A DNA stretch of 64,000 bases from Candidatus Omnitrophota bacterium (lineage in GTDB: Bacteria > Omnitrophota > Gorgyraeia > JAFGHF01), in contig JBHPFV010000003.1 in the NCBI GenBank assembly GCA_042571705.1, positions 28,298 to 92,297 of the forward strand. Reading direction: 5' to 3'. The notes under the pieces were generated by a model. The model saw nothing but the letters and a program-made list of their open reading frames with translations, did not search any database and was not told where the DNA came from. Made by a program: the position numbers and the translations under genes. Positions 1,827 to 40,009 of this stretch are shown here, piece by piece; the first letter of the stretch is position 1, and each line of letters begins with the position of its first letter.

Positions 1827-1835
1827 GAGGAAGAA

Positions 1836-2288: not shown

Positions 2289-2318
2289 AAAGCTAAAAAC
2301 AGATAAAAGGGAAAAGCT

Positions 2319-2828: not shown

Positions 2829-2839
2829 AAGGGGGAGGA

Positions 2840-3172: not shown

Positions 3173-3185
3173 AAAGGAAACAGCA

Positions 3186-5213: not shown

Positions 5214-5278
5214 AGTTCCCAAATAGGGCAGAGGCTTAAAGGCGTTTAGCTTTCCCCTATTTTCTGTTAACAGGGGAG

Positions 5279-9357: not shown

Positions 9358-9369
9358 AATTTACCTCGA

Positions 9370-11899: not shown

Positions 11900-11920
11900 T
11901 CCAGCGCCCTGTTTTCCTCG

Positions 11921-12196: not shown

Positions 12197-12214
12197 TCAT
12201 CGCCTCCGGATATA

Positions 12215-13486: not shown

Positions 13487-13517
13487 GATTATATTTCCCT
13501 TCTTAGAAAATACTAGT

Positions 13518-16415: not shown

Positions 16416-18755
16416 TTACTTTTTCACCGGTATCTTAATAGTCACGGTAGTCCCTTGTTGTGGCTTAGAGGAGACTTCAATGCTTCCCTTGTGGTTTTCA
16501 ATAATCCTATATACGATAGAAAGCCCCAGGCCGGTGCCTTGACCGATATCTTTGGTAGTAAAGAATGGGTCAAATATCTTATCAAGTTGATTTTTTGATA
16601 TCCCGACACCATCGTCCTTGACTTGCACGACCACAAAGTTTCCTTCTTGATAACTTTCGATGGTAATCGCGCCAGCTTCTCTAACTGATTTGATGGCTTC
16701 TTTGGCATTGACGATTAAATTGGTAAACACTTGCATTAATTCGTTAAAATTGCCCTCAATGGCCGCGATTGTTCCTTGCTGTTTGATCAGATAAAACTCA
16801 ATTTTTTCTTTAGTCAACTGATGCTCCAAAAAAGAGCAACAGCGGTCGATGACCTGATTTATTTGGATCGGTTCAAACTTGCTGCTGGTTTTCCTTGAGT
16901 ATTGCAACAGCATTTCTACAATTTCTTTGCAGCGCTGGGTACCTTCTTCGATTTGCTTGAGCATTCTTTTGTATGGTTTGGCCTGCAATTTTCTGAGCAA
17001 CATTTCTGTATTAAGTAATATCGCGCCCAGCGGTGTGTTGATTTCATGAGCCACGCCGCCGGCCAAGATACCTACCGTGGCCATTTTTTCGGACTGTATC
17101 AGCTGGGCTTCGGTAGTTTTTAATTTTTTCTGCACCCCGGAATGCATGCGGGCGTTGACTAAAGCTATGGAGGCATATTCAGCCAATGCTTCCACTAAGC
17201 TCAAGTCATCAGCGGTAAAGGCATTAACCAGAGATTGCCTGTCGATATAGATTAAGCCGACAATCCCTTTATTTTCTCTTTTTAAAGGCACGCAAATTAC
17301 TGAGCGAATATCCAGGTCTAAAACGCTTTTTGCAGTTGAAAATTGGCTGTCACCCTGAACATCAGTAAGCAAAATTGCTTCTTGGGTCTCCATGACCTTC
17401 TTGGTGATCGTCCGGCTAAAATTCTTGAAGAAAGTATGCTGTTTTTTGGTAATTTTTTCCTTAGTTCTAATTACCTGGGAATAAAGCTTTCCGGCCTCAT
17501 CCAGCAAAATCAAAAATCCACGATCAGCTTCAGTTACTTTCATGATGTATTCAATGACGTTATTTAAGACAGCCTCTAAGTCCAAATTACTGACCACCAG
17601 TTTCATGAATTCTTCCAGCGTTCCTTGCTGCTGTGTTTGTACAGAAGATGGTTGTTGAGCAGACCCTGGTGGCGCTGGCGCTTCTTTTTGCCTGTCTTTT
17701 AAGTCTTGGCGGGCTTGATTGGCAAGAGAGAGCTGAAATTGATTATCAATGATAATAAATTTAGCCGAGGCCTCTTCTAGGGCCTTGGTGCTTTGAGAAT
17801 AGTCTTTTAGCTCTGCGTATAATTCACCTAGCTTCAGTTGAGTTATCCCCTCTTCTAAAGGATTCTCCGTGGACTGGGCTATTTTAATAGCTTGCTTAAA
17901 ATATTCTTCTGCTTGTTTGAATTGTTTTTCTTTTTGAGTGATTTGACCCCAAAGCCTGAACAAATAAATATGATAATAAGAATCCGATACTTCTAACTCT
18001 GTTTCTAGCTTTTGCTGGGCCTGTTCCAAATATTCCCTGGCTTCAGCTATTTTTCCTTGCTTTAAAAGCACCTCAGCCGTATGATAAAGGGCAGGAATTA
18101 ACTGCTCTGCTTGCTTGTCTTGTCCCAAAGAAACAGCCTGCTTAAGATTGGTCAAGGCTTCCCCTTCCCTATTCAATTCCAAAGCGATCTTTCCCATCAG
18201 CACCTGGGCTTGGATTTGGAGGTTAAACTTTCCTAATTTCTTGGCCAGATCCAACAGCTTATTTGCCGTTTCCTGGGCGGAGTTAAAATCTCCCCGGTTT
18301 AAGGCCTCCCAGGCCAAAACCGGCAGCACATAGATTTCATAGGTTGATGGTTCTGGTAACCTCTGCAGACAACTAAACACCGAGTTACGCAGTCCTTGGA
18401 CCTGGTGTTTGCGGCCGCAAAACCCTAAGTAATCGAGTTTACATTTATTGACCCAGAAGGTTATATCTGCAAGATTATTTTGCTGAGCTATTTTATCAGC
18501 TTTTTCTAAATATTGGTCTAGGCCTTTTCTGCCGAAGCGAGAGAAGGTCTGCTCGCAGAGACAGCAAGCCATGGCGTAAACCCACCAGTATTGCTGATCT
18601 TGTCCTGTTTTTCTCTGTTCACAACGCCCAATCAGCTCTTTCATTTGGCTAGCGCAGGTAACAGCTAACCCGTGGTCTAATAAATCAGAGGCTTTGCTTA
18701 TTGAATCTTTGCTGTAGGCGAAAAACTTCCTATTTGAACTCCAAAATAACCGCAT
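16416..18755 (-). CDS. cytoplasmic TPR-GAF histidine kinase
   Basis: The N-terminal ~350 aa are TPR-like helical repeats, followed by a Q/P-rich linker, a GAF-like region, H-box AHEINTPL, and DDGVGI and GTGLGLS boxes. Confidence 0.85.
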   Translation of the reverse strand: MRLFWSSNRKFFAYSKDSISKASDLLDHGLAVTCASQMKELIGRCEQRKTGQDQQYWWVYAMACCLCEQTFSRFGRKGLDQYLEKADKIAQQNNLADITFWVNKCKLDYLGFCGRKHQVQGLRNSVFSCLQRLPEPSTYEIYVLPVLAWEALNRGDFNSAQETANKLLDLAKKLGKFNLQIQAQVLMGKIALELNREGEALTNLKQAVSLGQDKQAEQLIPALYHTAEVLLKQGKIAEAREYLEQAQQKLETELEVSDSYYHIYLFRLWGQITQKEKQFKQAEEYFKQAIKIAQSTENPLEEGITQLKLGELYAELKDYSQSTKALEEASAKFIIIDNQFQLSLANQARQDLKDRQKEAPAPPGSAQQPSSVQTQQQGTLEEFMKLVVSNLDLEAVLNNVIEYIMKVTEADRGFLILLDEAGKLYSQVIRTKEKITKKQHTFFKNFSRTITKKVMETQEAILLTDVQGDSQFSTAKSVLDLDIRSVICVPLKRENKGIVGLIYIDRQSLVNAFTADDLSLVEALAEYASIALVNARMHSGVQKKLKTTEAQLIQSEKMATVGILAGGVAHEINTPLGAILLNTEMLLRKLQAKPYKRMLKQIEEGTQRCKEIVEMLLQYSRKTSSKFEPIQINQVIDRCCSFLEHQLTKEKIEFYLIKQQGTIAAIEGNFNELMQVFTNLIVNAKEAIKSVREAGAITIESYQEGNFVVVQVKDDGVGISKNQLDKIFDPFFTTKDIGQGTGLGLSIVYRIIENHKGSIEVSSKPQQGTTVTIKIPVKK

Positions 18756-18773: not shown

Positions 18774-19160
18774 CTATTTATATCCAGCCAGTAACTTTTG
18801 TAATAATCTTGCGTCTTTTTTGCGCAGGTCTATAAAGCAGGCTCCGGTACTAAGAATGTCTTGATGTCCTTTTGCAACCGGCCGGCTATAAACTATTTTT
18901 ACCTTGGCGTTAATAGTTTTAGGCTTAGTTGGTTTGCCGCGTTTACTTTTTCTGGGTAACTCAAGCTGAAGATCTATTACCAAGGGGTCCGGTTTATGGC
19001 TGCCGACAAATCCCAACCCTTCAGCGCTAATATCTTTAGTTTGGGCCCTGATCTTTAGCTGTTCTTTAACTGGAGGTATGGTAGTGTGATAAGTTACCGG
19101 GAGTGAAACAGCGAATCTGCGCGTACCCCTGTTTTCAGTATATTTTTTCTTCCTTTTCAT
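18774..19160 (-). CDS. PilZ domain protein
   Basis: RGTRR (RxxxR) and DISAEG (DxSxxG). Confidence 0.7.
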   Translation of the reverse strand: MKRKKKYTENRGTRRFAVSLPVTYHTTIPPVKEQLKIRAQTKDISAEGLGFVGSHKPDPLVIDLQLELPRKSKRGKPTKPKTINAKVKIVYSRPVAKGHQDILSTGACFIDLRKKDARLLQKLLAGYK

Positions 19161-19185: not shown

Positions 19186-19563
19186 TTACATCCAATGGTT
19201 CCAATCTAGCCTAGCAATACTTTCCTTCACGAATTTTCTGATCGTCAACCGATCTTTTTGCTTCAACTTGACAAAGGCCACGCCGCATCGATAAGTGGGA
19301 TATCCGCCCCAGTAATTATTCAGCACGAACGTGATCCGACCTTGAACATTAATGCTAACATAAGGAGAGGGCAATACTATTGTTAGCTGCAAAATACTTC
19401 CGGGAGGCAGTTTCTTTGAGGTCTTGAGCATTATTCCGCCTTCGCAGATATTTACGCTGACCGCTTTTGTTGGTGAAGAAGCAGAGCCTTTAACCCTATA
19501 TTTGACACCAAAATCCGTTCTGACTCTAGAGAATTTTCTCTGTTCTTGAGCCATTTGAACCAC
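19186..19563 (-). CDS. PilZ domain protein (Cys variant of the binding motif)
   Basis: RKFSR, and NICEGG (Ser replaced by Cys). Its 5' end overlaps the larC stop by 29-38 bp, depending on the start codon chosen. Confidence 0.75.
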   Translation of the reverse strand: MVQMAQEQRKFSRVRTDFGVKYRVKGSASSPTKAVSVNICEGGIMLKTSKKLPPGSILQLTIVLPSPYVSINVQGRITFVLNNYWGGYPTYRCGVAFVKLKQKDRLTIRKFVKESIARLDWNHWM

Positions 19564-20737
19564 TCTCCTTCAATTTTTTTGAGCAGAGCATTTTTGCCTG
19601 ATCATACACAGCCTGCAAAGGCACCTTCTTTTTTTTAGCAATTCTTTTACAGGATTCATATTCCGGGGCAATAGTTTTTATCCGCTGGCCAATTTTGCCT
19701 ATTTTTACCTCAACCTTCCCGAAATCAGTCCCTATTGATACAACCTTGCGCAAAAGTTTTCTTCTTGTAAGATACTGTATCCTGACCCCAAATGTTGAAG
19801 TCTCGTCAAATATAACAGAGAGCAGTTCATCAAGTTTTTGTGGTTCGCTCAGGACGCTGAGCATGCTGGCAGCCCGGCCCTTTTTCATAATTATAGGGGT
19901 CATAAAGACATCAAGCGCGCCCTGGGAAAACAACTTTTCGCATGTATATTCCAGCACTTCGGGACTGAGGTCATCTATGTTTGTTTCCACCAGCGCTATT
20001 TCGTCTCGATCAGGCTGGTGTTCAATTAATTTCCCGAGGGAAATCCGTAAGAAATTAGGAATATTAAGTTCTTTCTCTCCTGCCCCGTAGCCTATTTTAG
20101 CTATTTTCATCTGCGGCAGGGAGCCAAAGCCCTGAGCAACAGCTTTAACTATAGAGGCGCCTGTGGGCGTAACCAGCTCTGTTTCTATGCCTTGGGAATA
20201 GACAGGTATTCCTTTCAATAACTCAAGTGTTGCCGGTGCCGGAACAGGTAATGTCCCGTGCCCGCATTTAAGAAAACCGCTTCCCATATGGATTTTTGAT
20301 GAATAGACGCGTTCAATGCCTAATTTCTTTATGGCTATAAAAGCCCCGATAATCTCTACTATTGAATCCAGCGCTCCCAGCTCATGAAAATGTATCTGAT
20401 TGATATCTTTACGATGTATTTGCGACTCTATCCTGGCAAGTTCTGTAAATGTATTTTTGCCCAGCTTCTTGATCTCACTATCCAATCCGCTTTTTTCTAT
20501 TAACTGCAGAATATCTCTTAAGTTTCGCTTGCGCGTTTGCTTGACAGTAGTAATATTAAACTTTGTTCCTGAGATCCCTCCCCTGAGCACCTGCTCTGTT
20601 TCTATTCTGTAACCGGGAAGCTTAAGTTTTTTTAGTTCTGCTTTAAGTTGCTTGAGATCCAGTCCGGCATCAATCAATGCGCCCAGGACCATATCCCCAC
20701 TGATACCGGAGAAGCAATCAAAATAGGCTATCTGCAC
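19526..20737 (-). CDS. larC: LarC, nickel-inserting cyclometallase of nickel-pincer nucleotide (NPN) cofactor synthesis
   Basis: N-terminus MQIAYFDCFSGISGDMVLGALIDAG. About 400 aa, with the typical two-domain length. Confidence 0.88.
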   Translation of the reverse strand: MQIAYFDCFSGISGDMVLGALIDAGLDLKQLKAELKKLKLPGYRIETEQVLRGGISGTKFNITTVKQTRKRNLRDILQLIEKSGLDSEIKKLGKNTFTELARIESQIHRKDINQIHFHELGALDSIVEIIGAFIAIKKLGIERVYSSKIHMGSGFLKCGHGTLPVPAPATLELLKGIPVYSQGIETELVTPTGASIVKAVAQGFGSLPQMKIAKIGYGAGEKELNIPNFLRISLGKLIEHQPDRDEIALVETNIDDLSPEVLEYTCEKLFSQGALDVFMTPIIMKKGRAASMLSVLSEPQKLDELLSVIFDETSTFGVRIQYLTRRKLLRKVVSIGTDFGKVEVKIGKIGQRIKTIAPEYESCKRIAKKKKVPLQAVYDQAKMLCSKKLKESGSNGSRTEKIL

Positions 20738-21492
20738 GTTTGTTTACCCATTCTATTGATCATGCTTGCAAAATACCCCGCACCAAACCCATTATCTATA
20801 TTTACTACTGTAACTCCGGGAGCGCAGCAGTTAAGCATAGACAATAGCGCCGCCAAACCATCAAAACTTGCTCCATAGCCAATACTAGTGGGAACAGCAA
20901 TTACCGGCTTATCTACCAGACCCCCGACTATACTAGCTAGGGCTCCTTCCATGCCGGCAACAACTATAATTACATTGGCCTTAACCAGGTTGGGCAAATA
21001 TTTAAATAATCTATGTATGCCGGCGACGCCGATATCATATGTTCGCTCCACAGAGTTTCCCAGAAGTTCGGCCGTTACCGCCGCTTCTTCGGCAACCGGA
21101 ATATCGGCAGTTCCGGCGCTGATGATCAATATACGTTTTTTGGAATTTTTTTGTTTACTCCGGCCGACAGCTACTATCTTGGCAGTTTCGTAATAAACCG
21201 CGTTCTTTTTTATTTTTTTGATAGCCTGGTAAATTTGTTTACTGGCCTTGGTGGCTATGGCCCAGCCAGTAGTCGCTAAAAGCCTCTTTGCTATCTTTGT
21301 GATTTGGTCGATCGTCTTACCCTTACAGAATATAACCTCCGGAACACCACAGCGTAACTCGCGATGCGTATCCAGTTTAGCAAATCCCAGGTCTTCAAAC
21401 GGCAGAGTTCGCAAAACATTCATCGCTTTGGAAACATCCAGCTTGCCGTTGCGTACACCATTAAGAAGTGCGTTTATCTTTTTGCTATTCAA
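20728..21492 (-). CDS. larB: LarB, NaAD carboxylase/hydrolase (AIR-carboxylase-like)
   Basis: ISAGTADIPVAEEAAVTAELLG and the PurE-like C-terminal half. 254 aa. Confidence 0.88.
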   Translation of the reverse strand: MNSKKINALLNGVRNGKLDVSKAMNVLRTLPFEDLGFAKLDTHRELRCGVPEVIFCKGKTIDQITKIAKRLLATTGWAIATKASKQIYQAIKKIKKNAVYYETAKIVAVGRSKQKNSKKRILIISAGTADIPVAEEAAVTAELLGNSVERTYDIGVAGIHRLFKYLPNLVKANVIIVVAGMEGALASIVGGLVDKPVIAVPTSIGYGASFDGLAALLSMLNCCAPGVTVVNIDNGFGAGYFASMINRMGKQTCR

Positions 21493-21501
21493 ATTCCATT
21501 C

Positions 21502-22329
21502 CTACCTTGAGCTTTTTAGCGTTTCGTTCATACTGCCCATCCTGTAACCTTCCAGGTCTACGGTTATGTACGCATAACCTAGTTTTTTAAGTTCGGCTAC
21601 AGCCTTCTCAGATATGCCTGAGCCGAAAAACAGGGGTATTTCTTCTTTGGGGACCTCTATTCTGGCAATAGCACCGTGTACCCTTACGCGCAGTTGACTA
21701 AAACCCAAAGTTGAGAGCAGCTCCTCGGCCTGATCCACTCGGATGAGCTCTGGAGAGGTGATTCTGTTGCCATATGGAAATCTGGATGATAAACACGGAA
21801 AAGCAGGTTTGTCCCAGGAAGGAAGATTAAGCTCTTTTGACAATATCCGGATCTCCTGTTTCGTAAATCCGGCTTCCTTTAAAGGGCTTCTCACGCTCAG
21901 TTCAGCCGCGGCTTTTGCGCCCGGGCGAAAATCTTTTGTATCATCGTAGTTTGAACCATCGGCAACATACTTTATTCCGTACTTCTTGGCCAGTTCGTTA
22001 AGCTTGGCAAACAACTCGCTTTTGCAGTAATAGCACCTTTGTGGAGAGTTCGCGGCAAAATCTTCGTTATTCAATTCACTTGTATTAATGATAATGTGTT
22101 TGACGCCTATAATTCCGGCATATTCTTTAGCTGCTTTGACTTCACGAGCGGGATATGTCTCTGACTGCGCGGTAACTGCCAGCACATTGTCCAGTAAAAC
22201 ATCCTTGGCCACTTTAACTAATAAAGTGCTGTCTACGCCTCCTGAATAAGCAACTAAAACACTTTCCATGCTCAATAAAATATTTTTTAAAACTGCTAAC
22301 TTTTCCAAGAGCTTATCCCTGCTTAACAA
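21502..22329 (-). CDS. larE: LarE, ATP-dependent sacrificial sulfur transferase
   Basis: PP-loop YSGGVDS and the LarE cysteine motif PCLSSRFPYG. 275 aa. Confidence 0.88.
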   Translation of the reverse strand: MLSRDKLLEKLAVLKNILLSMESVLVAYSGGVDSTLLVKVAKDVLLDNVLAVTAQSETYPAREVKAAKEYAGIIGVKHIIINTSELNNEDFAANSPQRCYYCKSELFAKLNELAKKYGIKYVADGSNYDDTKDFRPGAKAAAELSVRSPLKEAGFTKQEIRILSKELNLPSWDKPAFPCLSSRFPYGNRITSPELIRVDQAEELLSTLGFSQLRVRVHGAIARIEVPKEEIPLFFGSGISEKAVAELKKLGYAYITVDLEGYRMGSMNETLKSSR

Positions 22330-23056
22330 TAATTGTGCTGTTTAAATATACGTCTTTCATGCCCTCAATGAATTTTGTTAATATTTGCGAAGGTTGGCTG
22401 GGGTCAAAATGCATGAACGTACAAATATCATTAAACTCATAGAATGGTTCCAGTGGTGTCTTTTCATCTACATCATGAACTTTAGTAAACCCCATCTTTT
22501 CATAAATCCGGCCGGTTTTATATTTATTTCCCTGAATGATCAGCACCTCGTTTACTCCTTCTTGAAAGAAATAAGAATAGGTTACCGTAAATAGACCGGC
22601 GCCGACTTTACTTTTTACATTACGAAATCTGCGGTATTCTTCAGCAACCACCAGTCTGGATATCTCGATAACCTTGCGCTTCCTCTTGGTGAAATCGTCT
22701 AACATTACATCTAAGGCCCGGAGATGCTTTTTTAAATTTAATTTTTTAAAAATATACTCTGTTTCGCCGTCAAAATAAATCCCGTTTTCCGATAGTATGC
22801 TGACCCTTAAGCCCCCGATAACCCGGCCGTTATCTACAGCTATTGTATGCATCGAAACCGGATCCCACTTTTCTTCAAATCTGCCTTCCTTCGAGAGAAT
22901 TTCTTTCGAATAAAGGCCTTCGTCTACATAAACCTTGCCGCGCAATTTGCATAGTTGGTCTAAATATTTATTCCACAAGCCTGGGTCAACAACGACGTTC
23001 ATCTTGCCTGGAGCATACTTTGGGGGAGATTGTTCTAAAATTATAAATTTAACCAT
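22313..23056 (-). CDS. GNAT-fold N-acyltransferase of the LuxI/FeeM/OlsB-like group (N-acyl amino acid or autoinducer synthase-like)
   Basis: LRGKVYVDEGLY..GRFEEKWD..HTIAVDNGRVIGGLRV and IEISRLVVAEEYRR follow the pattern of that family. 247 aa. Confidence 0.55.
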   Translation of the reverse strand: MVKFIILEQSPPKYAPGKMNVVVDPGLWNKYLDQLCKLRGKVYVDEGLYSKEILSKEGRFEEKWDPVSMHTIAVDNGRVIGGLRVSILSENGIYFDGETEYIFKKLNLKKHLRALDVMLDDFTKRKRKVIEISRLVVAEEYRRFRNVKSKVGAGLFTVTYSYFFQEGVNEVLIIQGNKYKTGRIYEKMGFTKVHDVDEKTPLEPFYEFNDICTFMHFDPSQPSQILTKFIEGMKDVYLNSTIIVKQG

Positions 23057-23059
23057 TTA

Positions 23060-25351
23060 TTATGTTTCCTCTTTGAGAATTTTAATAAATATCTCTACGA
23101 TCTGAGGGTCAAATTGCTTACCCGCGTTTTTAATTAGTTCATTTTGAGCTTGCTCTACTGAGAGCGCCTTGAGATAAGGCTTATCGCTAATCATGGCTTG
23201 ATAGGCATCAACAATAGCGATGATCCTGGATTCCAAAGGTATGGCCTCGCCTTTGAGGCCTTCCAGATAACCCTTGCCATCCCAGCGCTCATGATGATAG
23301 CACACTATCCTGGCAATGTCTTCAAAATCTTCTAATTTTTCAGCCACGTTTTTGCTGTAAATAACGTGTTTTTTAATGGTTTCAAACTCTGCCTTGGTTA
23401 ATGAGCCTGGCTTGGTTAGGATATTAACAGGAATGCGCATTTTCCCGACATCATAAATTAAGGTAGCGGTTTCCAGTTGCTCCAATTGCCGCTTCGATAA
23501 ATTGAACCGCTCCCCTATTTTTCTGGCTAGTTGTGCGTTCTTCACATAGTGCAGGCGGGCATACCCCACAATCTCTGTAAGTTTGGTTACCAATTTTGTT
23601 ATATGAGTTAGTCTGTCTTCGAGCTCTTGCAACAGGCAAAGGTTATAATAGATACCCTTCTTCTTCATTAGTTGGCTGTGTGTTCCCATCTCCCGCATTT
23701 TCCCCATGTGCAGCACGAGGATCCTGTCGGCGTTACGAACAGTAGAGAGATGGTGAGCAATCACAATAACAGTCCTTTGTCCTTTTAAAATTTTTAAAAT
23801 ATTTTTAATCTCATTTGTGGTTTCGGCATCAACATTTGCCGTAGCTTCGTCAAGGACTATAATCTGGGGATTAAATAAACAAGCACGAGCAAAAGAGATT
23901 AGCTGTTTTTGACCGGTAGATAGCCTCGAGCCTAATTCTTGGACCTTTTCTTTGTATCCATGAGGAAGCTGAGATATAAATTTATCAGCGCCCACATAAA
24001 CAGCTGCTTGTTGGACTTGCTGGCTATCTATTTCTGAATTTCGTAATTTAATATTATCCTCTATACTTCCCGAGAACAGAAAAGGATCCTGCGGCACTAT
24101 TCCAATCAGCGAACGAAGCTTACCCTTGTTAATATTTTGAATATTAACGCCGTCAATTAGAATTTGCCCCTTATTCATTTCGTAAAATCGAGCCAATAGG
24201 TTGACTATTGAGGTTTTACCTGCCCCAGTATGGCCGACAATACCGATTTGCTCGCCTTTTTTAATTTTAAGATTAAAATTGTTGAGCACAAAGTTATTAT
24301 TATCGTAGGCAAACCAGACATCATTGAATTCGATTTTATCCTTAAAGTCCGGCAATTTGACCTTACCTTGAGGCGACTCCAGCTCACTCTTGGTATCCAA
24401 AAATCCCAAAATTCTTTCTAAAGAAACCCAGGCAGTCTGCAAGACCTTGTTCGCCTTGACTGTCCTTTCGATCAAAGCGAAAAAAAGCCCCATCGACCCG
24501 ATAAAGACAAGCAAAGACCCCAAACTTAGAGTTCCCTGCAGTACCTTTCTTCCTCCGTAGCCTAGTATCAAGCTCATTACCGCGGCCCTAAATATTGCTG
24601 TTACTGAAGGGGTCAGGTTTAAATAAGAAAGAGAACGAATGCTCGTATCGGCGTAACTTTTATTAAAATAATACAATTTCTCATTCTGCTTTTTTTCTTG
24701 TCGAAAAAGCTTGATCAGGGAAATGCCGGTTATGTTTTCTTGAAGAAAGGCATTGATCTTTCCAAACCAAGACCGGCTTTCCCTGGTTGCTTTTGCGGCT
24801 TTGCGGTTGATCCACACCAGAAAAATTCCGAATCCCAAAATCAATACATAGAATATCAAAGCAAGTTGATAATTTTGATAAAACAAGTAACCGACGATTC
24901 CCAGGAAAAGAAATACGTTGCCTAATATACTAGTGAATTGTTCAGTTGCCACAGGTTGTAAATGCTGAACATCATTAGTAGCCACTGTCAATAATTTTCC
25001 AATAGGCGTCCGATCAAAAAATGCAAGAGGCATCGTTTGTAAATGGGCAAAGATTTTCATTCTCAGGTCCAACATTACGTTTTGTCCGATATAGCTAGTT
25101 AAATAAATCCGCAAGAAACTAAACAACAGCAGCAAACCGAGCACAAAAAGATATATTAAGAGCACATTCTTGAGTAACCCCAGGAAGTCTGCTCTGAGGA
25201 CATAAACATCTATAGCTGTTTGCAATAGGTGTAATTGGAAGATTTGTAAAAACGCAATACCCAGCTGGAAAAAGACGCACAAGATAATCAGATTCTGGTA
25301 CGGCTTGGTATGTCTGATTAACATTTTTAGATTAAGTTTTCTCTTTGCCAT
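23060..25351 (-). CDS. ABC exporter half-transporter (TMD-NBD) fused to a C-terminal, partly degenerate HD-GYP domain
   Basis: Six N-terminal TM helices. Walker A GHTGAGKTS, signature LSTGQKQ, Walker B IIVLDEAT, H-loop IAHHLS. A ~180-aa tail then carries IYDVGK (HD changed to YD) and HHERWDGKGYLEG (GYP changed to GYL). Confidence 0.9.
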   Translation of the reverse strand: MAKRKLNLKMLIRHTKPYQNLIILCVFFQLGIAFLQIFQLHLLQTAIDVYVLRADFLGLLKNVLLIYLFVLGLLLLFSFLRIYLTSYIGQNVMLDLRMKIFAHLQTMPLAFFDRTPIGKLLTVATNDVQHLQPVATEQFTSILGNVFLFLGIVGYLFYQNYQLALIFYVLILGFGIFLVWINRKAAKATRESRSWFGKINAFLQENITGISLIKLFRQEKKQNEKLYYFNKSYADTSIRSLSYLNLTPSVTAIFRAAVMSLILGYGGRKVLQGTLSLGSLLVFIGSMGLFFALIERTVKANKVLQTAWVSLERILGFLDTKSELESPQGKVKLPDFKDKIEFNDVWFAYDNNNFVLNNFNLKIKKGEQIGIVGHTGAGKTSIVNLLARFYEMNKGQILIDGVNIQNINKGKLRSLIGIVPQDPFLFSGSIEDNIKLRNSEIDSQQVQQAAVYVGADKFISQLPHGYKEKVQELGSRLSTGQKQLISFARACLFNPQIIVLDEATANVDAETTNEIKNILKILKGQRTVIVIAHHLSTVRNADRILVLHMGKMREMGTHSQLMKKKGIYYNLCLLQELEDRLTHITKLVTKLTEIVGYARLHYVKNAQLARKIGERFNLSKRQLEQLETATLIYDVGKMRIPVNILTKPGSLTKAEFETIKKHVIYSKNVAEKLEDFEDIARIVCYHHERWDGKGYLEGLKGEAIPLESRIIAIVDAYQAMISDKPYLKALSVEQAQNELIKNAGKQFDPQIVEIFIKILKEET

Positions 25352-25355
25352 ATAA

Positions 25356-27161
25356 CTATATAGTTTCCAGCATTTCTTCTATAGTCTCTCTTTCAAAAAA
25401 TGCAGCATAAATCTCCCCCATTTGCAGTAATTGATTATGCGTGCCGCTCTCTACAGCCTGCCCGTTTATCAGAACCATAATCAGGTCGGCATTTTTAGCC
25501 GAGGCTATCCTATTAGCGATAAAAATGATGGTGCAGCCTTGCATTTCTCTGGTTAAGTTTTTTAATATCTTTTTTTCCGTACCGGCATCTACCTGCGAGA
25601 GGGCATTATCAAAAAGTAAAATTTTGGGCCGGATAATAACTGAGCGAGCGATAGCAATCCTTTGCTTTTGTCCACCCGAAAGGGTAACTCCTCTTTCTCC
25701 GATTAAGGTTTCATACCCGTAAGGAAATTCGTCTATATCTTTTTCAATATCAGCAATATTAACAGCCCTGCGCAAAGTCTCTTTGGTTGCCCCAGGGACC
25801 CCAAAACAAATATTGTCTCTTATACTTCCCGAAAATAAGAAGGGTTCCTGGGAAACGTAACCAATATTTCTTCTTAAGACATTTAAAGGAATCTCTTCAA
25901 TGGGATGGTTATCGACAAAAATCGTCTTTTGAGGTGCGCTATATGAACGGGCGATTAAATTAACTAATGTCGATTTGCCTGCACCAATATTGCCGATAAT
26001 CGCTATATTCTTTCCTTTTTCGAATTTTATATTTATATTACGGAGAATAGCTCTATCCTTTTCAAAAGAGAAGTTTAAATTGTTCAATCTTATTTCCCCT
26101 GCTATAGCGCTGATGCCATGATTGATTTTTTCAGAATCTTCAATATCGGGCTTTTGTAGGAGGATCTCGTTAATTCTTTCCAGGCGAGCCCGGGCCTGTT
26201 GAAAACGGCTGATTGAGACGCCAAGCAATAGCACAGGCCAAGTCAGATGGCTTAATTGATAAAAGAAAGCGGCAAATTTGCCCGGGGTTATCCTTCCGGA
26301 AATAATCAGACTGCAGCCAAATCCTAAAAATATTAACTGACTTAAACCGATAAGAAATCCGCACAAAGACATTCCCAGGCCGTAGATTTTATGAAAAGAC
26401 ATATTTTTCCTGAAGTGTTCTCTGTTCACCTTTCGGTAATTGATGATTTGATTGTCTTCGTTAACGTATGACTTAACTATTCTGATGCCGGAGAGATTCT
26501 CCTGGATCTCGGAGCTGAGCAGGCCAAAATGTTTTTGAATTATCCGCCTGTGCCTAAGACCGTATTTACTAAAAATATATGCGGCAATTGATACGCCCAC
26601 CAAGGGAACCAGTGCGTAAATAACCAACTCTTTCCCGATAATAAATAGATAAATAACGGAAATCGGAGCTAAAATGAAATAATTTCCCAGAGCAATACCT
26701 GCGCTGGCGAACTCATCGATACACCTGATATCGTCACTGAACCTAGCCATAATATCGCCGGTGTTCTGTTGGTGGTAATATGACTGCGAGAGTCTTTGCA
26801 GATGAGAAAAGAGCCGACTTCTTAAATCGCATTCAATTCTTTTGGCAGTGGACATAATTAGAAATTGGAAAAAGTATATAAAAGGCAAGCGAGTAATATT
26901 TACTAAAAGATACAAAGAGGCAAAAAAGACTAAAATACCACCTTTTGAATCTATATGCAGATACACAAAGACCTTTTGCAATAAACCAGGCTGGAGGTAG
27001 TCTTCTTTAAGAACATTAAAACCCTGATTGATAATTATCGGTTCACAGATTTGAATCAGATTACTGAAAACCAAGAGCAGGAATCCAAAGAGTAAAATTC
27101 TTTTATGCTTTAGGACGTGTTCCTTTAATGGCATCAGATTTGCTAACGTCTTACTCTTCAT
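25356..27161 (-). CDS. ABC exporter half-transporter with a degenerate catalytic site (partner subunit)
   Basis: TMD-NBD layout. Walker A GNIGAGKST and signature LSGGQKQR. Walker B reads ILLFDNALS (catalytic Glu replaced by Asn) and the H-loop reads IANRIAS (His replaced by Asn). Confidence 0.9.
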   Translation of the reverse strand: MKSKTLANLMPLKEHVLKHKRILLFGFLLLVFSNLIQICEPIIINQGFNVLKEDYLQPGLLQKVFVYLHIDSKGGILVFFASLYLLVNITRLPFIYFFQFLIMSTAKRIECDLRSRLFSHLQRLSQSYYHQQNTGDIMARFSDDIRCIDEFASAGIALGNYFILAPISVIYLFIIGKELVIYALVPLVGVSIAAYIFSKYGLRHRRIIQKHFGLLSSEIQENLSGIRIVKSYVNEDNQIINYRKVNREHFRKNMSFHKIYGLGMSLCGFLIGLSQLIFLGFGCSLIISGRITPGKFAAFFYQLSHLTWPVLLLGVSISRFQQARARLERINEILLQKPDIEDSEKINHGISAIAGEIRLNNLNFSFEKDRAILRNINIKFEKGKNIAIIGNIGAGKSTLVNLIARSYSAPQKTIFVDNHPIEEIPLNVLRRNIGYVSQEPFLFSGSIRDNICFGVPGATKETLRRAVNIADIEKDIDEFPYGYETLIGERGVTLSGGQKQRIAIARSVIIRPKILLFDNALSQVDAGTEKKILKNLTREMQGCTIIFIANRIASAKNADLIMVLINGQAVESGTHNQLLQMGEIYAAFFERETIEEMLETI

Positions 27162-27340: not shown

Positions 27341-28174
27341 CTATTTAAGACTTTTTTTTAAAAATTTCAAAATTGCTCTATTTACTATTGCTGGATGTGT
27401 TTCATGCGTTGCGTGTCCGGCATAGGGAACTACAAGTAACTTTGAATTTCTTATCTTTGCCTTAAGCCAACGAGCTGATTTCAATGGAAAATAGGGATCG
27501 TTCTCACCCCAAATAAGAAGGACCTTTTTGTCTATCTTACAATTTTTGTCAAGTATATCAGCAAATTTACATTGAGCGCCGACTGCCACTAGGGCATCTC
27601 TTGCCTCTTGAGTTTTCCACATTTTAAATTGTTCACTTACTACTTTTTTAGTAACTGCCTCTCGATTACAATAACCTTCTTTTAACAAACACTCTAAAAC
27701 TTTCCTTGCCCAAGACAGGCTTTTTTTACCTTGGCTGAGATAGGTTAATGCCTTAAATCGCCTTGCTCGTGCCTTGCTGATTTTAGCTGTACCAAAGCGA
27801 GCTATGGAATTTATCACAATCAGCCGATCAACTTTTTCGGGGTGCTCTATAGTGAAGGATGTGGCCAAAGCTCCTCCCCAAGAGGCTCCAATAAGCGTGG
27901 CTTTATCAATTTTTAGAGTTTTTAAGAATCGGTAGATCAGCTTTGTGAAGAAAAAGCGGGAATAATTAATCTTAGGCTTATCTGAACGGCCAAAGCCAAT
28001 TAAGTCTAGTGCGTAAACTCTAAAATATTTAGATAGTTCAGGCAGATTTTTGCGCCAACTAAAAATATCTGTTCCAAACCCGTGGATCAGAAGTACAGGT
28101 AAGCCTTTTCCGCACACTACGTAGCGCATTTTATATCCTAAAACATCTATGTAGCTATCTTTTTTTTCCATCAT
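27341..28174 (-). CDS. alpha/beta-fold hydrolase
   Basis: HGFG oxyanion region, nucleophile elbow GASWGG, and C-terminal AGHATHE. Confidence 0.8.
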   Translation of the reverse strand: MMEKKDSYIDVLGYKMRYVVCGKGLPVLLIHGFGTDIFSWRKNLPELSKYFRVYALDLIGFGRSDKPKINYSRFFFTKLIYRFLKTLKIDKATLIGASWGGALATSFTIEHPEKVDRLIVINSIARFGTAKISKARARRFKALTYLSQGKKSLSWARKVLECLLKEGYCNREAVTKKVVSEQFKMWKTQEARDALVAVGAQCKFADILDKNCKIDKKVLLIWGENDPYFPLKSARWLKAKIRNSKLLVVPYAGHATHETHPAIVNRAILKFLKKSLK

Positions 28175-29115
28175 TTATAATATATACAGCGTTTTTTATC
28201 GACTCGAAATTTAAGACTTCTGGCAATACCCAAACTCCACCAGCACACATAGTTAAAAAATAGGCATATAGCTACAAATAACCGCGGTCTGGTATAGGCT
28301 TCAGCTATATAGTTGCTGCCTTTAATCAGCTGAAAAATCTTGACGAATATTTCAAGAAACATTACAAAAAAAGCGCGCCAATCACCGTAACGAATATATT
28401 TCATGTAGACTGCTAATCGCGATAACTCGTATTGCTTTAGTTTATCCATGGCTTCCTTGCCCCATTTCCTTACCTCAAGATGGATAACTTTAACTGAAGA
28501 TGAATCAAAAATTTTAAATCCATTCATTAGCGTCCGATAGCTATAATCGTAATCTACATTTCCTGGCAATGCTGCGCCGGTGCCCAACATTTCGTCAAAA
28601 CTACCAACCTTTTCAATTACTTCTTTTTTCACAGCCATATTGGCTCCAATACCCCGGGCATAAACCTTTGAAAAAACCCCCTTCAATAATGAATCTTTGG
28701 CCAAAAATACAGGTACAAAACCGTCGCTTGTCTTATACCCCGGAGGAGGCAGAACACTTCCGAAGACTATGCCCGCCTCCGGATTCTGCCTGAAGCTTAA
28801 GACCATATTTTCTATCCAGTCACTGTGTACCGCGCAATCGTCATCGGTAAAGGCTACAATTGTTCCCTGATATTTCTTTATACCAAAATTTTTTGCCGTA
28901 CCCAATCCCCGAGAAGAAGTTCGAAAATATCTTATTTTCGAATTAGTTTGCGCAAACCTATCTACTAAAACCTGCGTCCTGCCATTATCGCTTTGATCGA
29001 CAATAATAACTTCAAAGTCCGCATAGCTATTAGCTAATATACTATTGATTGTATGCTCTAAGTACTTTGGCCTATTGCGCGTAGAGATTATAACAGACAC
29101 CTTTTCTTTGCTCAT
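28171..29115 (-). CDS. family 2 glycosyltransferase
   Basis: VSVIISTRNR..FEVIIVDQSDNG and the DxD-type FTDDDC. Paralogous to 29857-30798 along its whole length. Confidence 0.85.
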   Translation of the reverse strand: MSKEKVSVIISTRNRPKYLEHTINSILANSYADFEVIIVDQSDNGRTQVLVDRFAQTNSKIRYFRTSSRGLGTAKNFGIKKYQGTIVAFTDDDCAVHSDWIENMVLSFRQNPEAGIVFGSVLPPPGYKTSDGFVPVFLAKDSLLKGVFSKVYARGIGANMAVKKEVIEKVGSFDEMLGTGAALPGNVDYDYSYRTLMNGFKIFDSSSVKVIHLEVRKWGKEAMDKLKQYELSRLAVYMKYIRYGDWRAFFVMFLEIFVKIFQLIKGSNYIAEAYTRPRLFVAICLFFNYVCWWSLGIARSLKFRVDKKRCIYYK

Positions 29116-38904: not shown

Positions 38905-38914
38905 CTTTTTAGTA

Positions 38915-39991: not shown

Positions 39992-40009
39992 AATTATTGC
40001 CTCCCCATC

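What the first reader, a model, noticed from the sequence alone, without database searches (positions are those of the whole stretch)
22313..27161. Asymmetric heterodimeric ABC exporter with a partly degenerate HD-GYP domain, followed by a LuxI/FeeM-like N-acyltransferase
The 763-aa subunit has canonical NBD motifs plus a ~180-aa C-terminal HD-GYP domain. When this domain is aligned by eye to the intact HD-GYP at 3702-5213, the first His, the later His, the HH pair and the Asp are kept. However, the HD dyad reads YD (IYDVGK) and GYP reads GYL. The HD His is a metal ligand in solved HD-GYP structures, so this domain is more likely a c-di-GMP sensor than an enzyme. The 601-aa partner has Walker B DN in place of DE (ILLFDNA) and an H-loop Asn in place of His (IANR). 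That is the degenerate-site pattern of obligate heterodimeric exporters. A GNAT of the autoinducer/N-acyl-amino-acid-synthase type starts 3 bp after the fusion gene. An M20D N-acyl-amino-acid amidohydrolase-like gene lies 20 kb away on the same strand. Together these suggest c-di-GMP-gated export of an acylated small molecule or lipid. I am not aware of a characterised ABC exporter with an HD-GYP fusion.
Basis: partly seen in the sequence, partly recalled or inferred. Interest (0 to 1): 0.65.

Follow-up and report, generated by a model that had tools for sequence, protein, structure and literature searches.

The report
Exporter fused to altered c-di-GMP domain
An uncultured Omnitrophota bacterium has a two-subunit ABC export pump in a sugar-polymer/lipid gene cluster, one subunit of which carries a conserved, probably non-catalytic version of a c-di-GMP-degrading domain, and related bacteria keep the same domain, PilZ c-di-GMP receptors and an acyltransferase even where the pump is replaced by an unrelated transporter, pointing to an undescribed way of tying export to the biofilm messenger c-di-GMP.

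Summary
Three co-directional minus-strand genes encode:
- a 601-aa ABC half-transporter with a degenerate ATP site (Walker B D-N, H-loop Asn);
- a 763-aa half-transporter with consensus catalytic motifs, an LSTGQ signature and a C-terminal HD-GYP domain reading YD/GYL;
- a FeeM/LuxI-fold GNAT.

The fusion is not an artefact. It recurs in three ABC clades, always paired with a degenerate partner and always YD.

- GYL is irrelevant. Relatives keep GYP, and GYP mutants of PmGH stay active.
- The diagnostic changes are H221→Y and D308→Q, plus D183→V in the Omnitrophota ABC clades.
- The conserved module is exporter-HD-GYP + GNAT + two PilZ proteins + a TPR-GAF histidine kinase.
- In other Omnitrophota-like loci an MFS–YD-HD-GYP–PilZ protein replaces the ABC pair in the same slot. 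Its fused PilZ is 39% identical to the window's PilZ1.

My best reading is a c-di-GMP-responsive regulatory tail, working with PilZ, on an exporter of a glycolipid or acylated amphiphile. Nucleotide binding, lack of hydrolysis and the substrate are all inferred. The M20D link is unsupported. I found no description of this architecture in the literature. I class it as a new variant of a known kind, interest about 0.6.

The parts
25356..27161 (-). 601-aa ABC half-transporter (TMD+NBD) with a degenerate ATP site. Walker B ILLFD-N (25596-25622), H-loop IA-N-R (25503-25520), canonical LSGGQ.
   Evidence: D518-N519 and N550 are invariant in 5 orthologues. The same pattern occurs in L009 (D-D, H-loop N) and L091 (D-N, N). 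Nearest solved chains are TmrB and BmrC/YheI.
23624..25351 (-). Transporter body of the 763-aa subunit: TMD plus a consensus NBD (Walker A GHTGAGKTS, Walker B IIVLDE, H-loop IAHH). The signature is non-canonical, LSTGQ (about 23909-23923).
   Evidence: Nearest solved chains are TmrA, TM288 and BmrD/YheH. The signature is LS[T/A/E]GQ in all fusion orthologues.
23060..23623 (-). C-terminal YD-type HD-GYP tail (residues about 577-763). YD replaces HD (LIYDVGK, 23441-23461). HHERWDGKGYL lies at 23264-23296. The D308 equivalent is Q and the D183 equivalent is V.
   Evidence: Pfam HD_5 E 3.5e-39. PDB alignments to V-cGAP3, PmGH, DvhD and PA4781. YD is invariant in 12 orthologues plus P0142 and P0168. 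Residue audit against the window's intact HD-GYP. The tail is as conserved as the NBD (71% vs 73%).
22313..23056 (-). 247-aa FeeM / N-acyl-amino-acid-synthase-like GNAT. It starts 3 nt after the fusion gene.
   Evidence: Pfam FeeM 41.8 bits and Acetyltransf_5. AF2 model pLDDT 84. Top folds are the AHL synthases BjaI, RpaI and LasI, and FeeM 2G0B. Orthologues sit in the same slot in L002, L003, L005, L006, L007, L092, L106 and L109.
19186..19563 (-). PilZ1, 125 aa. RxxxR is present; the second motif reads N-I-C-E-G-G.
   Evidence: Pfam PilZ E 9e-11. 58-62% identical orthologues in L001, L002, L005 and L007. 39% identical over full length (E 3e-33) to the PilZ fused behind the YD-HD-GYP in MFS protein P0168.
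18774..19160 (-). PilZ2, 128 aa. RxxxR and D-I-S-A-E-G are both canonical.
   Evidence: Pfam PilZ E 9e-7. 50-58% identical orthologues directly after PilZ1 in all Omnitrophota-type loci.
16416..18755 (-). TPR-GAF-HisKA-HATPase sensor kinase, the last member of the conserved module.
   Evidence: 68-70% identical orthologues follow the PilZ pair in L001, L002, L003, L005, L007, L105 and L109.
27341..29115 (-). Alpha/beta-hydrolase (27341-28174) and GT2 glycosyltransferase (28171-29115), immediately upstream of the ABC pair.
   Evidence: 56-59% identical orthologues occupy the same positions in L002, L003 and L005.
19526..22329 (-). larC, larB and larE (nickel-pincer cofactor synthesis). This is a lineage-specific insertion between the GNAT and the PilZ pair, and is not part of the module.
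   Evidence: Pfam Ni_insertion, AIRC and PP-loop. No counterpart in any related locus.

Best explanation
The two large genes encode an obligate heterodimeric type-IV (B-family) ABC exporter. It has one degenerate and one consensus ATP site, like TmrAB or BmrCD. It sits inside a roughly 35-kb glycosyltransferase/lipid-modification cluster of an Omnitrophota bacterium.

The catalytically competent subunit carries a C-terminal 'YD-type' HD-GYP domain. This domain has lost three residues needed for hydrolysis in PmGH (H221->Y, D308->Q, D183->V). It keeps the rest of the metal site and most c-di-GMP-contacting residues.

I propose that this tail is a regulatory module rather than a bulk phosphodiesterase. 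It would sense c-di-GMP, alone or together with the two conserved PilZ proteins, and transmit that to the attached NBD. That would gate ATP-driven export of the cluster's product.

The product is most likely an amphiphile, such as a glycolipid, a lipid-linked sugar or an N-acylated small molecule made with the FeeM-like GNAT. The reason is that an MFS transporter can take the ABC pair's place.

Shown: architecture, motif degeneration, conservation, synteny, the transporter swap and the HD-GYP-PilZ fusion. Inferred: c-di-GMP binding, absence of turnover, direction of regulation and the substrate.
For: (1) Architecture and motifs.

(2) The fusion is found in about 12 clusters at 90% identity, in three clades reaching down to 31% overall identity. 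Every one is YD and every one has a degenerate partner.

(3) The tail is under strong constraint. Mean pairwise identity is 71%, against 73% for the NBD and 54% for the TMD. Where an in-frame TAA detaches it, the tail is still 90% identical to its nearest fused relative while the body is 77% identical.

(4) Catalytic audit. The H221, D308 and D183 equivalents are replaced, and each alanine mutant abolishes PmGH activity (PMC4159591). PA2572 (YN-GYP) has no detectable activity (PMC3411652).

(5) There is a precedent for a degenerate HD-GYP that binds but does not cleave c-di-GMP: DvhD, PDB 9RBZ (PMC13090378). Its contact residues L577, Y621, M646, R650 and Y652 correspond to L, Y, M, K/R and Y in the tail (mapped). 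The PmGH K235 and I294 equivalents are invariant.

(6) c-di-GMP context. PilZ1, PilZ2 and the TPR-GAF kinase are conserved neighbours. A REC-HD-GYP follows in L002 and L005.

(7) Rosetta stone and non-orthologous displacement. MFS-YD-HD-GYP-PilZ (P0168) sits in the same slot, followed by GNAT, PilZ1, PilZ2 and the kinase, in two lineages.

(8) All fusion loci with enough upstream or flanking sequence are glycosyltransferase clusters (window).
Against: - No biochemical data exist for any YD-type domain.
- Five of the seven PmGH ligands found across HD-GYPs are strictly invariant (D222, H250, H276, H277, D305), and H189 is kept in most clades. Established receptor-type HD-GYPs (DvhD, HnoD, ECA3548) have lost several ligands. 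This pattern would also fit a still-active or metal-dependent enzyme, and Tyr can ligate Fe(III).
- Only one tail is present per heterodimer, whereas DvhD signals through HD-GYP dimerisation.
- By the usual domain logic, a C-terminal HD-GYP is the output and the N-terminal part is the input.
- The tail has been lost by deletion in one lineage (L090), so it is dispensable there.
- The distant clades (L004/L091, L009) lack adjacent PilZ and GNAT genes.
- The substrate is unknown, and no NCBIfam equivalog cutoff is reached.
- The full-length AF2 model is too poor to show any NBD-tail interface.
Confidence: 0.5

Rival explanations
1. The tail is a working phosphodiesterase and the transporter is its input. 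The HD-GYP would be slow or use a different metal, with Tyr as a ligand. The transport cycle or substrate load would switch local c-di-GMP (or pGpG/cGAMP) hydrolysis on or off. This would make the protein a 'transceptor' or trigger enzyme that reports export status to the PilZ effectors and the glycan-synthesis machinery.
For: - D222, H250, H276, H277, D305 and K225 are invariant across clades that share only 31-45% identity. This degree of retention is typical of active enzymes and unlike DvhD.
- A C-terminal HD-GYP is normally the output domain.
- The E185 equivalent is Tyr, as in the predicted binuclear Y/F subfamily, which includes the window's own intact HD-GYP.
- YD also occurs in GGDEF-HD-GYP and PAS-HD-GYP signalling proteins.
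Against: - H221A, D308A and D183A each abolish PmGH activity, and all three positions are substituted here.
- PA2572 (YN-GYP) is inactive.
- None of the 115 nearest stand-alone HD-GYPs with a recognisable dyad, which are presumably active, carries YD.
Confidence: 0.25
2. The tail is a nucleotide-independent docking platform. It would recruit the PilZ proteins, or a diguanylate cyclase, to the exporter, much as the RpfG HD-GYP engages GGDEF and PilZ partners. PilZ would be the only c-di-GMP sensor.
For: - PilZ1 is fused directly behind the YD-HD-GYP in P0168, and two PilZ genes are conserved neighbours.
- Catalytically inactive RpfG-family proteins act through protein-protein interactions (Galperin & Chou).
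- PilZ2 has fully canonical binding motifs.
Against: - Invariance of the metal and phosphate-site residues (HHE, D305, K225, K235) is not explained by a pure docking role.
- The distant ABC clades carry the tail without neighbouring PilZ genes.
- The PilZ1 second motif usually has G or C in place of Ser, so PilZ1 itself may be a weak binder.
Confidence: 0.15
3. The module is a cell-cell signalling cassette. The LuxI/FeeM-like GNAT would make an N-acyl signal, the ABC (or MFS) pump would export it, and the TPR-GAF kinase with a REC-HD-GYP regulator would sense it. The tail and PilZ proteins would provide c-di-GMP feedback on signal export. The glycosyltransferases would be regulated targets rather than makers of the exported substrate.
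For: - The GNAT fold is closest to AHL synthases and FeeM.
- GNAT + exporter + PilZ pair + TPR-GAF kinase travel together even when the transporter class changes. An ABC-to-MFS swap favours a small-molecule substrate.
- A REC-HD-GYP (RpfG-like) follows the kinase in L002 and L005.
- NAS genes are known to sit in EPS-associated loci (Craig et al. 2011, cited in PMC7293339).
Against: - The window's GNAT has no Pfam Autoind_synth hit at E<=0.01, and it is only 10-15% identical to AHL synthases.
- The distant ABC-HD-GYP clades lack the GNAT.
- In the window the kinase is followed by a REC-HisKA protein, not a REC-HD-GYP.
- There is no evidence for the ligand of the GAF domain.
Confidence: 0.1

Closest known systems
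Heterodimeric ABC exporters with one degenerate ATP site (TmrAB, BmrCD/YheIH, TM287/288)
   Same: - Two adjacent half-transporter genes with the PF00664 exporter fold.
- One NBD lacks the catalytic Glu and the H-loop His, and the other NBD supplies a non-canonical signature.
- The partner is closest to TmrB/BmrC and the fusion subunit to TmrA/BmrD.
   Different: - None of these carries a C-terminal signalling domain.
- The catalytic residue here is Asn. From my own recollection, not checked here, TmrB and BmrC have Asp at that position.
- The genomic context is glycan/lipid biosynthesis, not multidrug resistance.
DvhD of Desulfovibrio vulgaris (degenerate HD-GYP c-di-GMP receptor, PDB 9RBZ/9RC0)
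   Same: - An HD-GYP domain with an altered HD dyad that binds c-di-GMP without hydrolysing it and relays the signal across the membrane.
- Several contact residues (L577, Y621, M646, R650, Y652) are matched in the tail.
   Different: - DvhD has lost HD (->SQ) and HH (->MN) and binds without metal. The tail here keeps D222, HH, H250 and D305.
- DvhD is a dCache-PAS-HD-GYP homodimer that controls a protease. Here there is a single tail on an ABC heterodimer.
PA2572 (YN-GYP) of Pseudomonas aeruginosa and other inactive RpfG-family or PilZ-HD-GYP proteins (HnoD, ECA3548)
   Same: - PA2572 has Tyr at the HD histidine and no detectable c-di-GMP hydrolysis, with a regulatory role.
- ECA3548 combines PilZ with an inactivated HD-GYP.
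   Different: These are soluble response-regulator or YcgR-like proteins, not transporter fusions. PA2572 has also lost the Asp.
c-di-GMP-gated polysaccharide secretion (BcsA-PilZ, Alg44-PilZ, PelD) and ligand-binding C-terminal regulatory domains on ABC ATPases (MetN, ModC, MalK; c-di-AMP-binding CBS domains of OpuCA)
   Same: The logic is the same: a second-messenger or ligand-binding domain physically attached to the export or transport machine controls it post-translationally. This comparison rests on my own knowledge. PelD, LapD and PilZ are listed as receptors in PMC12448109.
   Different: - Those systems use synthase-dependent secretion or importers.
- None uses an HD-GYP domain.
- None is a B-family exporter or an MFS transporter.
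FeeM / N-acyl amino acid synthases and LuxI-type AHL synthases
   Same: GNAT fold with TM-scores of 0.5-0.7. Pfam FeeM is above its cutoff. An E-x-S-R-L core motif is present (E131/S133/R134/L135 are invariant; the motif is my own reading). NAS genes are known next to EPS/exosortase loci.
   Different: - Only 10-15% sequence identity.
- No PDB sequence hit.
- Below the TIGR03694 cutoff (24.5 vs 112 bits).
- The family is tiny, with 12 clusters.
- Acyl donor and acceptor are unknown.

Membership tests
Heterodimeric ABC exporter with a degenerate nucleotide-binding site | Two distinct half-transporters (TMD-NBD, exporter fold) encoded side by side | tested here: met
   Both proteins hit PF00664 and PF00005. 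They are 30% identical to each other and 4 nt apart.
Heterodimeric ABC exporter with a degenerate nucleotide-binding site | One NBD lacks the Walker-B catalytic Glu and the H-loop His | tested here: met
   ILLFD-N and IA-N-R. Both are invariant in orthologues and in the distant clades.
Heterodimeric ABC exporter with a degenerate nucleotide-binding site | The opposite NBD contributes a non-consensus signature motif and keeps its own consensus catalytic residues | tested here: met
   LSTGQ, with IIVLDE and IAHH in the 763-aa subunit. The signature is LS[T/A/E]GQ in all orthologues.
Heterodimeric ABC exporter with a degenerate nucleotide-binding site | The subunits physically heterodimerise and hydrolyse ATP asymmetrically | not testable with these tools
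   Needs co-purification and ATPase assays.
HD-GYP c-di-GMP phosphodiesterase (PF13487/COG2206) | Domain-level homology | tested here: met
   HD_5 E 3.5e-39. PmGH E 5e-28 and V-cGAP3 E 7e-35.
HD-GYP c-di-GMP phosphodiesterase (PF13487/COG2206) | Complete set of catalytic and metal residues (H189, H221-D222, K225, H250, H276-H277, D305, D308, D183) | tested here: not met
   H221->Y, D308->Q and D183->V; the others are kept. The alanine mutants of these three are inactive in PmGH.
HD-GYP c-di-GMP phosphodiesterase (PF13487/COG2206) | GYP motif | tested here: not met
   GYL in the window and GY[L/I] in the close clades. GYP is kept in P0142, P0168 and P0281. The motif is not critical for catalysis.
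HD-GYP c-di-GMP phosphodiesterase (PF13487/COG2206) | Hydrolysis of c-di-GMP | not testable with these tools
   Needs an enzyme assay.
Degenerate HD-GYP c-di-GMP receptor (DvhD type) | Loss of metal ligands, with metal-independent binding | tested here: inconclusive
   Only one canonical ligand is lost (two in P0013/14). HH, H250, D222 and D305 are invariant, unlike DvhD.
Degenerate HD-GYP c-di-GMP receptor (DvhD type) | Retention of c-di-GMP-contacting residues | tested here: met
   L577, Y621, M646, R650 (as K/R) and Y652 are matched. K582 and E668 are not, but those also differ in PmGH.
Degenerate HD-GYP c-di-GMP receptor (DvhD type) | Binds c-di-GMP and changes conformation | not testable with these tools
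   Needs ITC/DRaCALA and a structure.
FeeM / N-acyl amino acid synthase (PF21926, PF13444) | Profile match above the curated cutoff, and the fold | tested here: met
   FeeM 41.8 bits (cutoff 27) and Acetyltransf_5 31.4 bits (cutoff 22.4). Foldseek hits to FeeM 2G0B and AHL synthases at probability 1.0.
LuxI-type AHL synthase (PF00765) | Profile match | tested here: not met
   No Autoind_synth hit at E<=0.01 for the window protein. Only a 'faint' precomputed hit for the L007 paralogue.
PEP-CTERM/exosortase-associated acyltransferase (TIGR03694) | Score above the curated cutoff | tested here: not met
   24.5 bits against a cutoff of 111.95.
PilZ c-di-GMP receptor | PF07238 match with RxxxR and [D/N]xSxxG | tested here: met
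   Both proteins are above cutoff. PilZ2 has R..RR and DISAEG. PilZ1 has RKFSR and N-I-[C/G/S]-E-x-G, with the Ser usually replaced.
M20D amidohydrolase functionally linked to the GNAT | Family membership | tested here: met
   TIGR01891 347 bits against a cutoff of 154.
M20D amidohydrolase functionally linked to the GNAT | Conserved co-location with the exporter/GNAT module | tested here: not met
   No M20 homologue within the +/-8 kb flanks of seven related loci. In the window it is 22 kb away, separated by a MacB-HlyD-OEP system and many other genes.

The most novel reading that the evidence does not exclude
YD-type HD-GYP domains are a distinct, previously unrecognised class of transporter-attached second-messenger modules. 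Together with a dedicated PilZ partner, fused in MFS proteins and free-standing next to ABC pairs, they would directly gate membrane exporters of two unrelated superfamilies. This would be the first case of c-di-GMP acting on primary (ABC) and secondary (MFS) exporters through an HD-GYP-derived receptor. It may be part of a GNAT-made acyl-signal export and sensing loop in Omnitrophota.
Probability: 0.35. Interest if true: 0.78.

Novelty: new variant of a known kind. Interest (0 to 1): 0.6.

Why it matters
Post-translational control of matrix secretion by c-di-GMP is a central theme of biofilm biology. The known examples are synthase-dependent systems (BcsA, Alg44, PelD) and the LapD/DvhD protease switches.

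A degenerate HD-GYP hard-wired to the ATPase of an ABC exporter, and to an MFS transporter together with PilZ, would extend that control to two major exporter superfamilies. It would also give degenerate HD-GYP domains, whose receptor role was shown structurally only in 2026, a second and different output.

The system is compact and testable. It needs one tail, two small PilZ proteins and one heterodimer. A natural 'control' exists in the detached-tail and deleted-tail variants.

It also flags a small, uncharacterised FeeM/LuxI-like acyltransferase family whose product is probably the exported or regulating molecule. This is in a phylum (Omnitrophota) whose physiology is almost unknown.

Tried and rejected
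- **GTDB genome scan with the tail alignment.** All 80 loci were canonical HD. It is uninformative about taxonomic spread.
- **Tail-only homology search.** It returned only proteins of 330 aa or less, so no architectures. It was used only as a background count: 115 HD and 4 with no recognisable dyad among the 119 domains my motif search picked up, none of them YD. The detached tail P0281 is YD but escaped that search.
- **PDB sequence search with the GNAT.** No hit at E<=1. A fold search was needed.
- **Rfam on the whole window.** No c-di-GMP riboswitch or any other family.
- **Promoter/terminator scan of 18.5-28.4 kb.** Counts were at or below shuffle expectation, so no operon boundaries could be assigned.
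- **Full-length AF2 model of the fusion.** Mean pLDDT 67, pTM 0.37, linker 570-585 below pLDDT 50. Nothing can be said about tail-NBD docking, so no fold search was run on it.
- **Artefact hypothesis (frameshift or misassembly creating the fusion).** Rejected. The fusion occurs in NCBI, JGI, ENA and Logan assemblies, in three clades.
- **'GYL means inactive'.** Rejected.
- **M20D as part of the system.** Rejected for lack of synteny.
- **The lar genes as part of the module.** Rejected; they are a window-specific insertion.
- **NCBIfam.** It gave no equivalog for either ABC subunit. The best matches (MsbA, MsbA_rel, HlyB, CphA-associated, HepA) are all far below cutoff, so the substrate cannot be read from family membership.

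Full report
**1. What is in the sequence**

Positions 22313-27161 hold three tightly packed minus-strand ORFs: 601 aa (25356-27161), 763 aa (23060-25351) and 247 aa (22313-23056). The gaps between them are 4 nt and 3 nt.

Pfam assigns ABC_membrane and ABC_tran to both large proteins. The 763-aa protein also has a C-terminal HD_5/HD domain (residues 577-751, E 3.5e-39). The small protein hits FeeM (41.8 bits, cutoff 27) and Acetyltransf_5. NCBIfam places both ABC proteins among B-family exporters (MsbA, MsbA-related, HlyB, HepA, CphA-associated), but far below every equivalog cutoff.

The closest protein in the databases is a 100% match annotated only as 'ABC transporter transmembrane domain-containing protein [Candidatus Omnitrophota bacterium]'.

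**2. The ATPase asymmetry is real and ancient**

A direct alignment of the two subunits (30% identity) gives the following.

| Motif | 601-aa partner | 763-aa fusion subunit |
|---|---|---|
| Walker B | ILLFD-N-A | IIVLD-E-A |
| H-loop | IA-N-R | IA-H-H |
| Signature | LSGGQ | LSTGQ |

One composite site is therefore doubly degenerate: the partner's Walker B and H-loop, plus the fusion subunit's signature. The other site is consensus.

D-N and the H-loop Asn are invariant in five orthologous partners. They recur as D-D/N in the most distant clade (L009) and as D-N/N in the 45% clade (L091). The fusion subunit's signature is LS[T/A/E]GQ throughout.

Among solved structures, the partner is nearest TmrB and BmrC (YheI). 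The fusion subunit is nearest TmrA, TM288 and BmrD (YheH). These are the classical degenerate-site heterodimers.

**3. The HD-GYP tail: what is and is not degenerate**

Against PmGH (4MCW) the tail keeps H189, D222, K225, K235, H250, H276/H277, I294 and D305. It reads Y for H221 and L for the Pro of GYP.

I then aligned the tails with the window's own intact PAS-GAF-HD-GYP (3702-5213; LHDVGK, HHHERFDGKGYP). This shows two further losses: the D308 equivalent is Q (Q, Y or R in relatives), and the D183 equivalent is V in the Omnitrophota ABC clades.

In PmGH, H221A, D308A and D183A each abolish activity. G284A, Y285A and P286A do not substantially reduce it (PMC4159591). So GYL is a red herring. 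The relatives P0142, P0168 and the detached tail P0281 all have GYP. The informative changes are H221->Y and D308->Q.

The E185 equivalent is Tyr in the tail, and also in the intact reference domain. Both therefore belong to the Y/F subfamily that the PmGH authors predicted to be binuclear.

**4. The fusion is genuine, conserved and constrained**

About a dozen 90%-identity clusters carry the same architecture at 64-83% identity, and two more do so at 45%.

I ran an exhaustive phmmer search of 1.84 billion representatives, using the segment from the NBD signature to the C-terminus. Exactly three representatives align across NBD and tail in one stretch: P0008, P0013 and a third clade, P0142 (790 aa).

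All of them read YD. In the P0013/14 clade, H189 is also lost (->G).

Mean pairwise identity among the fusions is 54% for the TMD, 73% for the NBD and 71% for the tail.

Two natural variants are instructive:
- In L005/L006 a single in-frame TAA replaces the Ser codon at the NBD/tail junction. The detached tail is nevertheless 90% identical to its closest fused relative, while the transporter body is 77% identical.
- In L090 the tail has a frameshift and an internal deletion of about 110 aa.

So the tail can be detached, and in one lineage it was lost. Where present it is under strong purifying selection.

H->Y is rare. None of the 115 nearest stand-alone HD-GYP domains with a recognisable dyad has it. 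Neither do any of 80 GTDB hits. A YD-specific metagenome scan returned only 18 stretches. These included a few PAS- or GGDEF-linked HD-GYPs, so the change is recurrent but uncommon.

**5. The conserved neighbourhood**

In orthologous loci the order is:

GT2/GT1 - alpha/beta-hydrolase - GT2 - ABC(degenerate) - ABC-HD-GYP - GNAT - PilZ - PilZ - TPR-GAF-histidine kinase

This is followed in L002 and L005 by a REC-HD-GYP regulator, an ECF sigma/anti-sigma pair and an OEP.

In the window the same genes are present:
- GNAT at 22313-23056.
- PilZ1 at 19186-19563.
- PilZ2 at 18774-19160.
- The kinase at 16416-18755.

However, larE, larB and larC are inserted between the GNAT and PilZ1. That insertion is seen in no other locus. 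The kinase is 68-70% identical across loci, PilZ1 58-62% and PilZ2 50-58%.

PilZ2 has canonical RxxxR and DxSxxG motifs. PilZ1 has RxxxR and N-I-[C/G/S]-E-x-G.

The wider window is one long minus-strand cluster containing the following:
- many GT2s and a GT28-C;
- PMT_2 and YdjC;
- radical-SAM enzymes;
- a MacB-HlyD-OEP system;
- a heparinase-II/III-like protein;
- LuxC/LuxE-like proteins and AMP-binding enzymes.

Three more PilZ genes precede the intact HD-GYP at 1461-3551. No GGDEF was found among the ORFs I scanned, and there is no riboswitch.

**6. The key result: a transporter swap that keeps the module**

The tail's closest non-ABC relative is P0168 (53% identical). It is an MFS transporter with the architecture MFS - YD-type HD-GYP - PilZ. 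Its fused PilZ is 39% identical over full length to the window's PilZ1 (E 3e-33).

Its gene occupies the slot of the ABC pair. It is preceded by GT2s, PMT_2 and an LPG_synthase_TM protein. It is followed by a 247-aa FeeM-like GNAT (35% identical), PilZ1 (61%), PilZ2 (52%) and the TPR-GAF kinase (70%).

A second MFS lineage, 76% identical in the MFS part, shows the same order (L106/L109).

This is a non-orthologous displacement of the transporter with retention of the regulatory set. It is also a Rosetta-stone fusion linking the YD-HD-GYP to PilZ1.

The third ABC clade (L009) sits in a GT4/GT2/ATP-grasp cluster without a GNAT or PilZ genes. In the 45% clade the downstream genes are unrelated, and the upstream region is truncated by contig ends. 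The universal association is therefore 'exporter with YD tail in a glycosyltransferase cluster'. The GNAT/PilZ/kinase set is specific to the main Omnitrophota clade.

**7. The GNAT**

Its family is tiny: 12 clusters at 56-68% identity, all unnamed. A second subtype, 35% identical, occurs in L001 and L007. There is no PDB sequence hit.

An AF2 model (pLDDT 84) is closest to the CoA-dependent AHL synthases BjaI and RpaI, to LasI, and to FeeM (TM-scores 0.5-0.7, 10-15% identity).

It is below the cutoff for the exosortase-associated acyltransferase family. It has no Autoind_synth hit. 'LuxI/FeeM-like' is therefore a fair description of the fold, but the substrates are unknown.

N-acyl amino acid synthase genes embedded in EPS-associated loci have a precedent (Craig et al. 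2011, as cited in PMC7293339).

**8. How it most likely works**

*Shown.* A degenerate-site heterodimeric exporter. A conserved, constrained HD-GYP-derived tail on the catalytically competent subunit. Loss of three residues essential in PmGH. Retention of the nucleotide-contact residues shared with DvhD and PmGH. Obligatory company of PilZ proteins in the main clade. Exchangeability of ABC and MFS.

*Inferred.* The tail binds c-di-GMP with little or no turnover. This is analogous to DvhD, whose degenerate HD-GYP binds c-di-GMP and does not hydrolyse it (PMC13090378), and to the inactive YN-GYP protein PA2572. Together with PilZ1/PilZ2, the tail would modulate NBD closure or hydrolysis at the consensus site.

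Because an MFS can substitute, the cargo is more likely a small amphiphile than a long polymer. Candidates are a glycolipid, a lipid-linked sugar or an N-acyl compound.

*Caveats.*
- The near-complete retention of the metal ligands is unlike known receptor-type HD-GYPs. It keeps open an active, Tyr-ligated or mononuclear enzyme, and the reverse logic in which the transporter is the input and the PDE is the output.
- Only one tail exists per heterodimer, so the DvhD dimer-splaying mechanism cannot simply be transferred.
- The full-length AF2 model is too weak to help.

**9. Comparison with what is known, and novelty**

Each ingredient is known:
- degenerate-site ABC heterodimers;
- degenerate HD-GYP receptors;
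- PilZ-gated secretion;
- ligand-binding C-terminal domains on ABC ATPases;
- NAS genes in EPS loci.

The combination appears undescribed. The 2021 census of HD-GYP architectures does not mention ABC or transporter fusions at all. Full-text searches for HD-GYP/ABC fusions, PilZ with ABC exporters, and Omnitrophota c-di-GMP found nothing relevant. The only parallel found was a single ComFB-ABC ATPase fusion noted in passing.

I therefore class it as a new variant of a known kind. It is a solid, testable lead rather than a categorically new system.

**10.

- The degenerate-site heterodimer and the c-di-GMP/acyl-export idea stand, and are strengthened by the PilZ pair, the kinase and the MFS swap.
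- The GYL argument and the M20D link do not hold up. The M20 gene is a bona fide TIGR01891 amidohydrolase, but it is 22 kb away and not syntenic in the related loci.
- 'Sensor, not enzyme' is plausible, at about 65% for the sensor and docking readings combined, but it is unproven.

Noticed in passing
window 5275-6100 (intergenic, after the PAS-GAF-HD-GYP gene): About 850 bp of degenerate tandem repeats with a 28-29 nt period (56- and 112-nt super-periods), built from paired (A/G)GTAA cores roughly every 14 nt, e.g. CGAGTAAGTTCTAGTAAAAT. There is no convincing ORF and no Rfam hit, and it is not CRISPR-like. It could be a protein-binding array or a sponge RNA.
   Followed up: partly
window 1461-1826, 2319-2828, 3186-3551 (+) and 3702-5213 (+): Three more stand-alone PilZ genes lie directly upstream of an intact PAS-GAF-HD-GYP phosphodiesterase. 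The window therefore holds five PilZ proteins and two HD-GYP domains, but none of the ORFs I scanned has a GGDEF domain.
   Followed up: partly
window 19526-22329 (-): larC, larB and larE (nickel-pincer nucleotide cofactor synthesis) are inserted between the GNAT and the PilZ pair in this genome only. No LarA-type (DUF2088) gene was seen among the ORFs I scanned. A 589-aa DUF362 protein (42452-44221) is conserved at the head of the cluster in L002.
   Followed up: partly
L005 9759-9761 and L006 (same protein); L090 4400-4653: Natural tail variants. In L005/L006 an in-frame TAA sits exactly at the NBD/HD-GYP junction and the downstream tail is intact (seen in a JGI and a Logan assembly). L090 has a frameshift plus an internal deletion of about 110 aa in the tail. 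These would serve as natural controls. Read-through or recoding of the TAA was not examined.
   Followed up: partly
L091 1-919 (contig start, P0013 clade): The ORF upstream of the fusion gene joins a PstS/PBP_like_2-like N-terminal fragment to a degenerate-type NBD (ILLLDNALSQVD) with no TMD. The sister MAG's contig (L004) breaks at the same place. This may be a rearrangement or an assembly chimera.
   Followed up: no
window 36946-41305 (-) and 51105-53446 (-): A MacB-HlyD-OEP tripartite efflux system and LuxC/LuxE-like acyl-CoA reductase and acyl-protein synthetase genes lie inside the same glycosyltransferase cluster. This is reminiscent of glycolipid (DevBCA-type) export and fatty-aldehyde/alcohol chemistry. 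It fits a lipid-containing product but was not analysed further.
   Followed up: no
P0137 (898 aa): A protein with three tandem HD-GYP domains reading FD / YD / FD at the HD dyad, each with HHERPDGKGYP. This is a multi-degenerate HD-GYP array of unknown context.
   Followed up: no
window 8278-15050 (-): Downstream of the kinases lie an AMP-binding enzyme, an Orn/DAP/Arg decarboxylase, an MBOAT and two proteins with no family hit. This is a Dlt/AlgI-like acylation set that may modify the same surface polymer.
   Followed up: no
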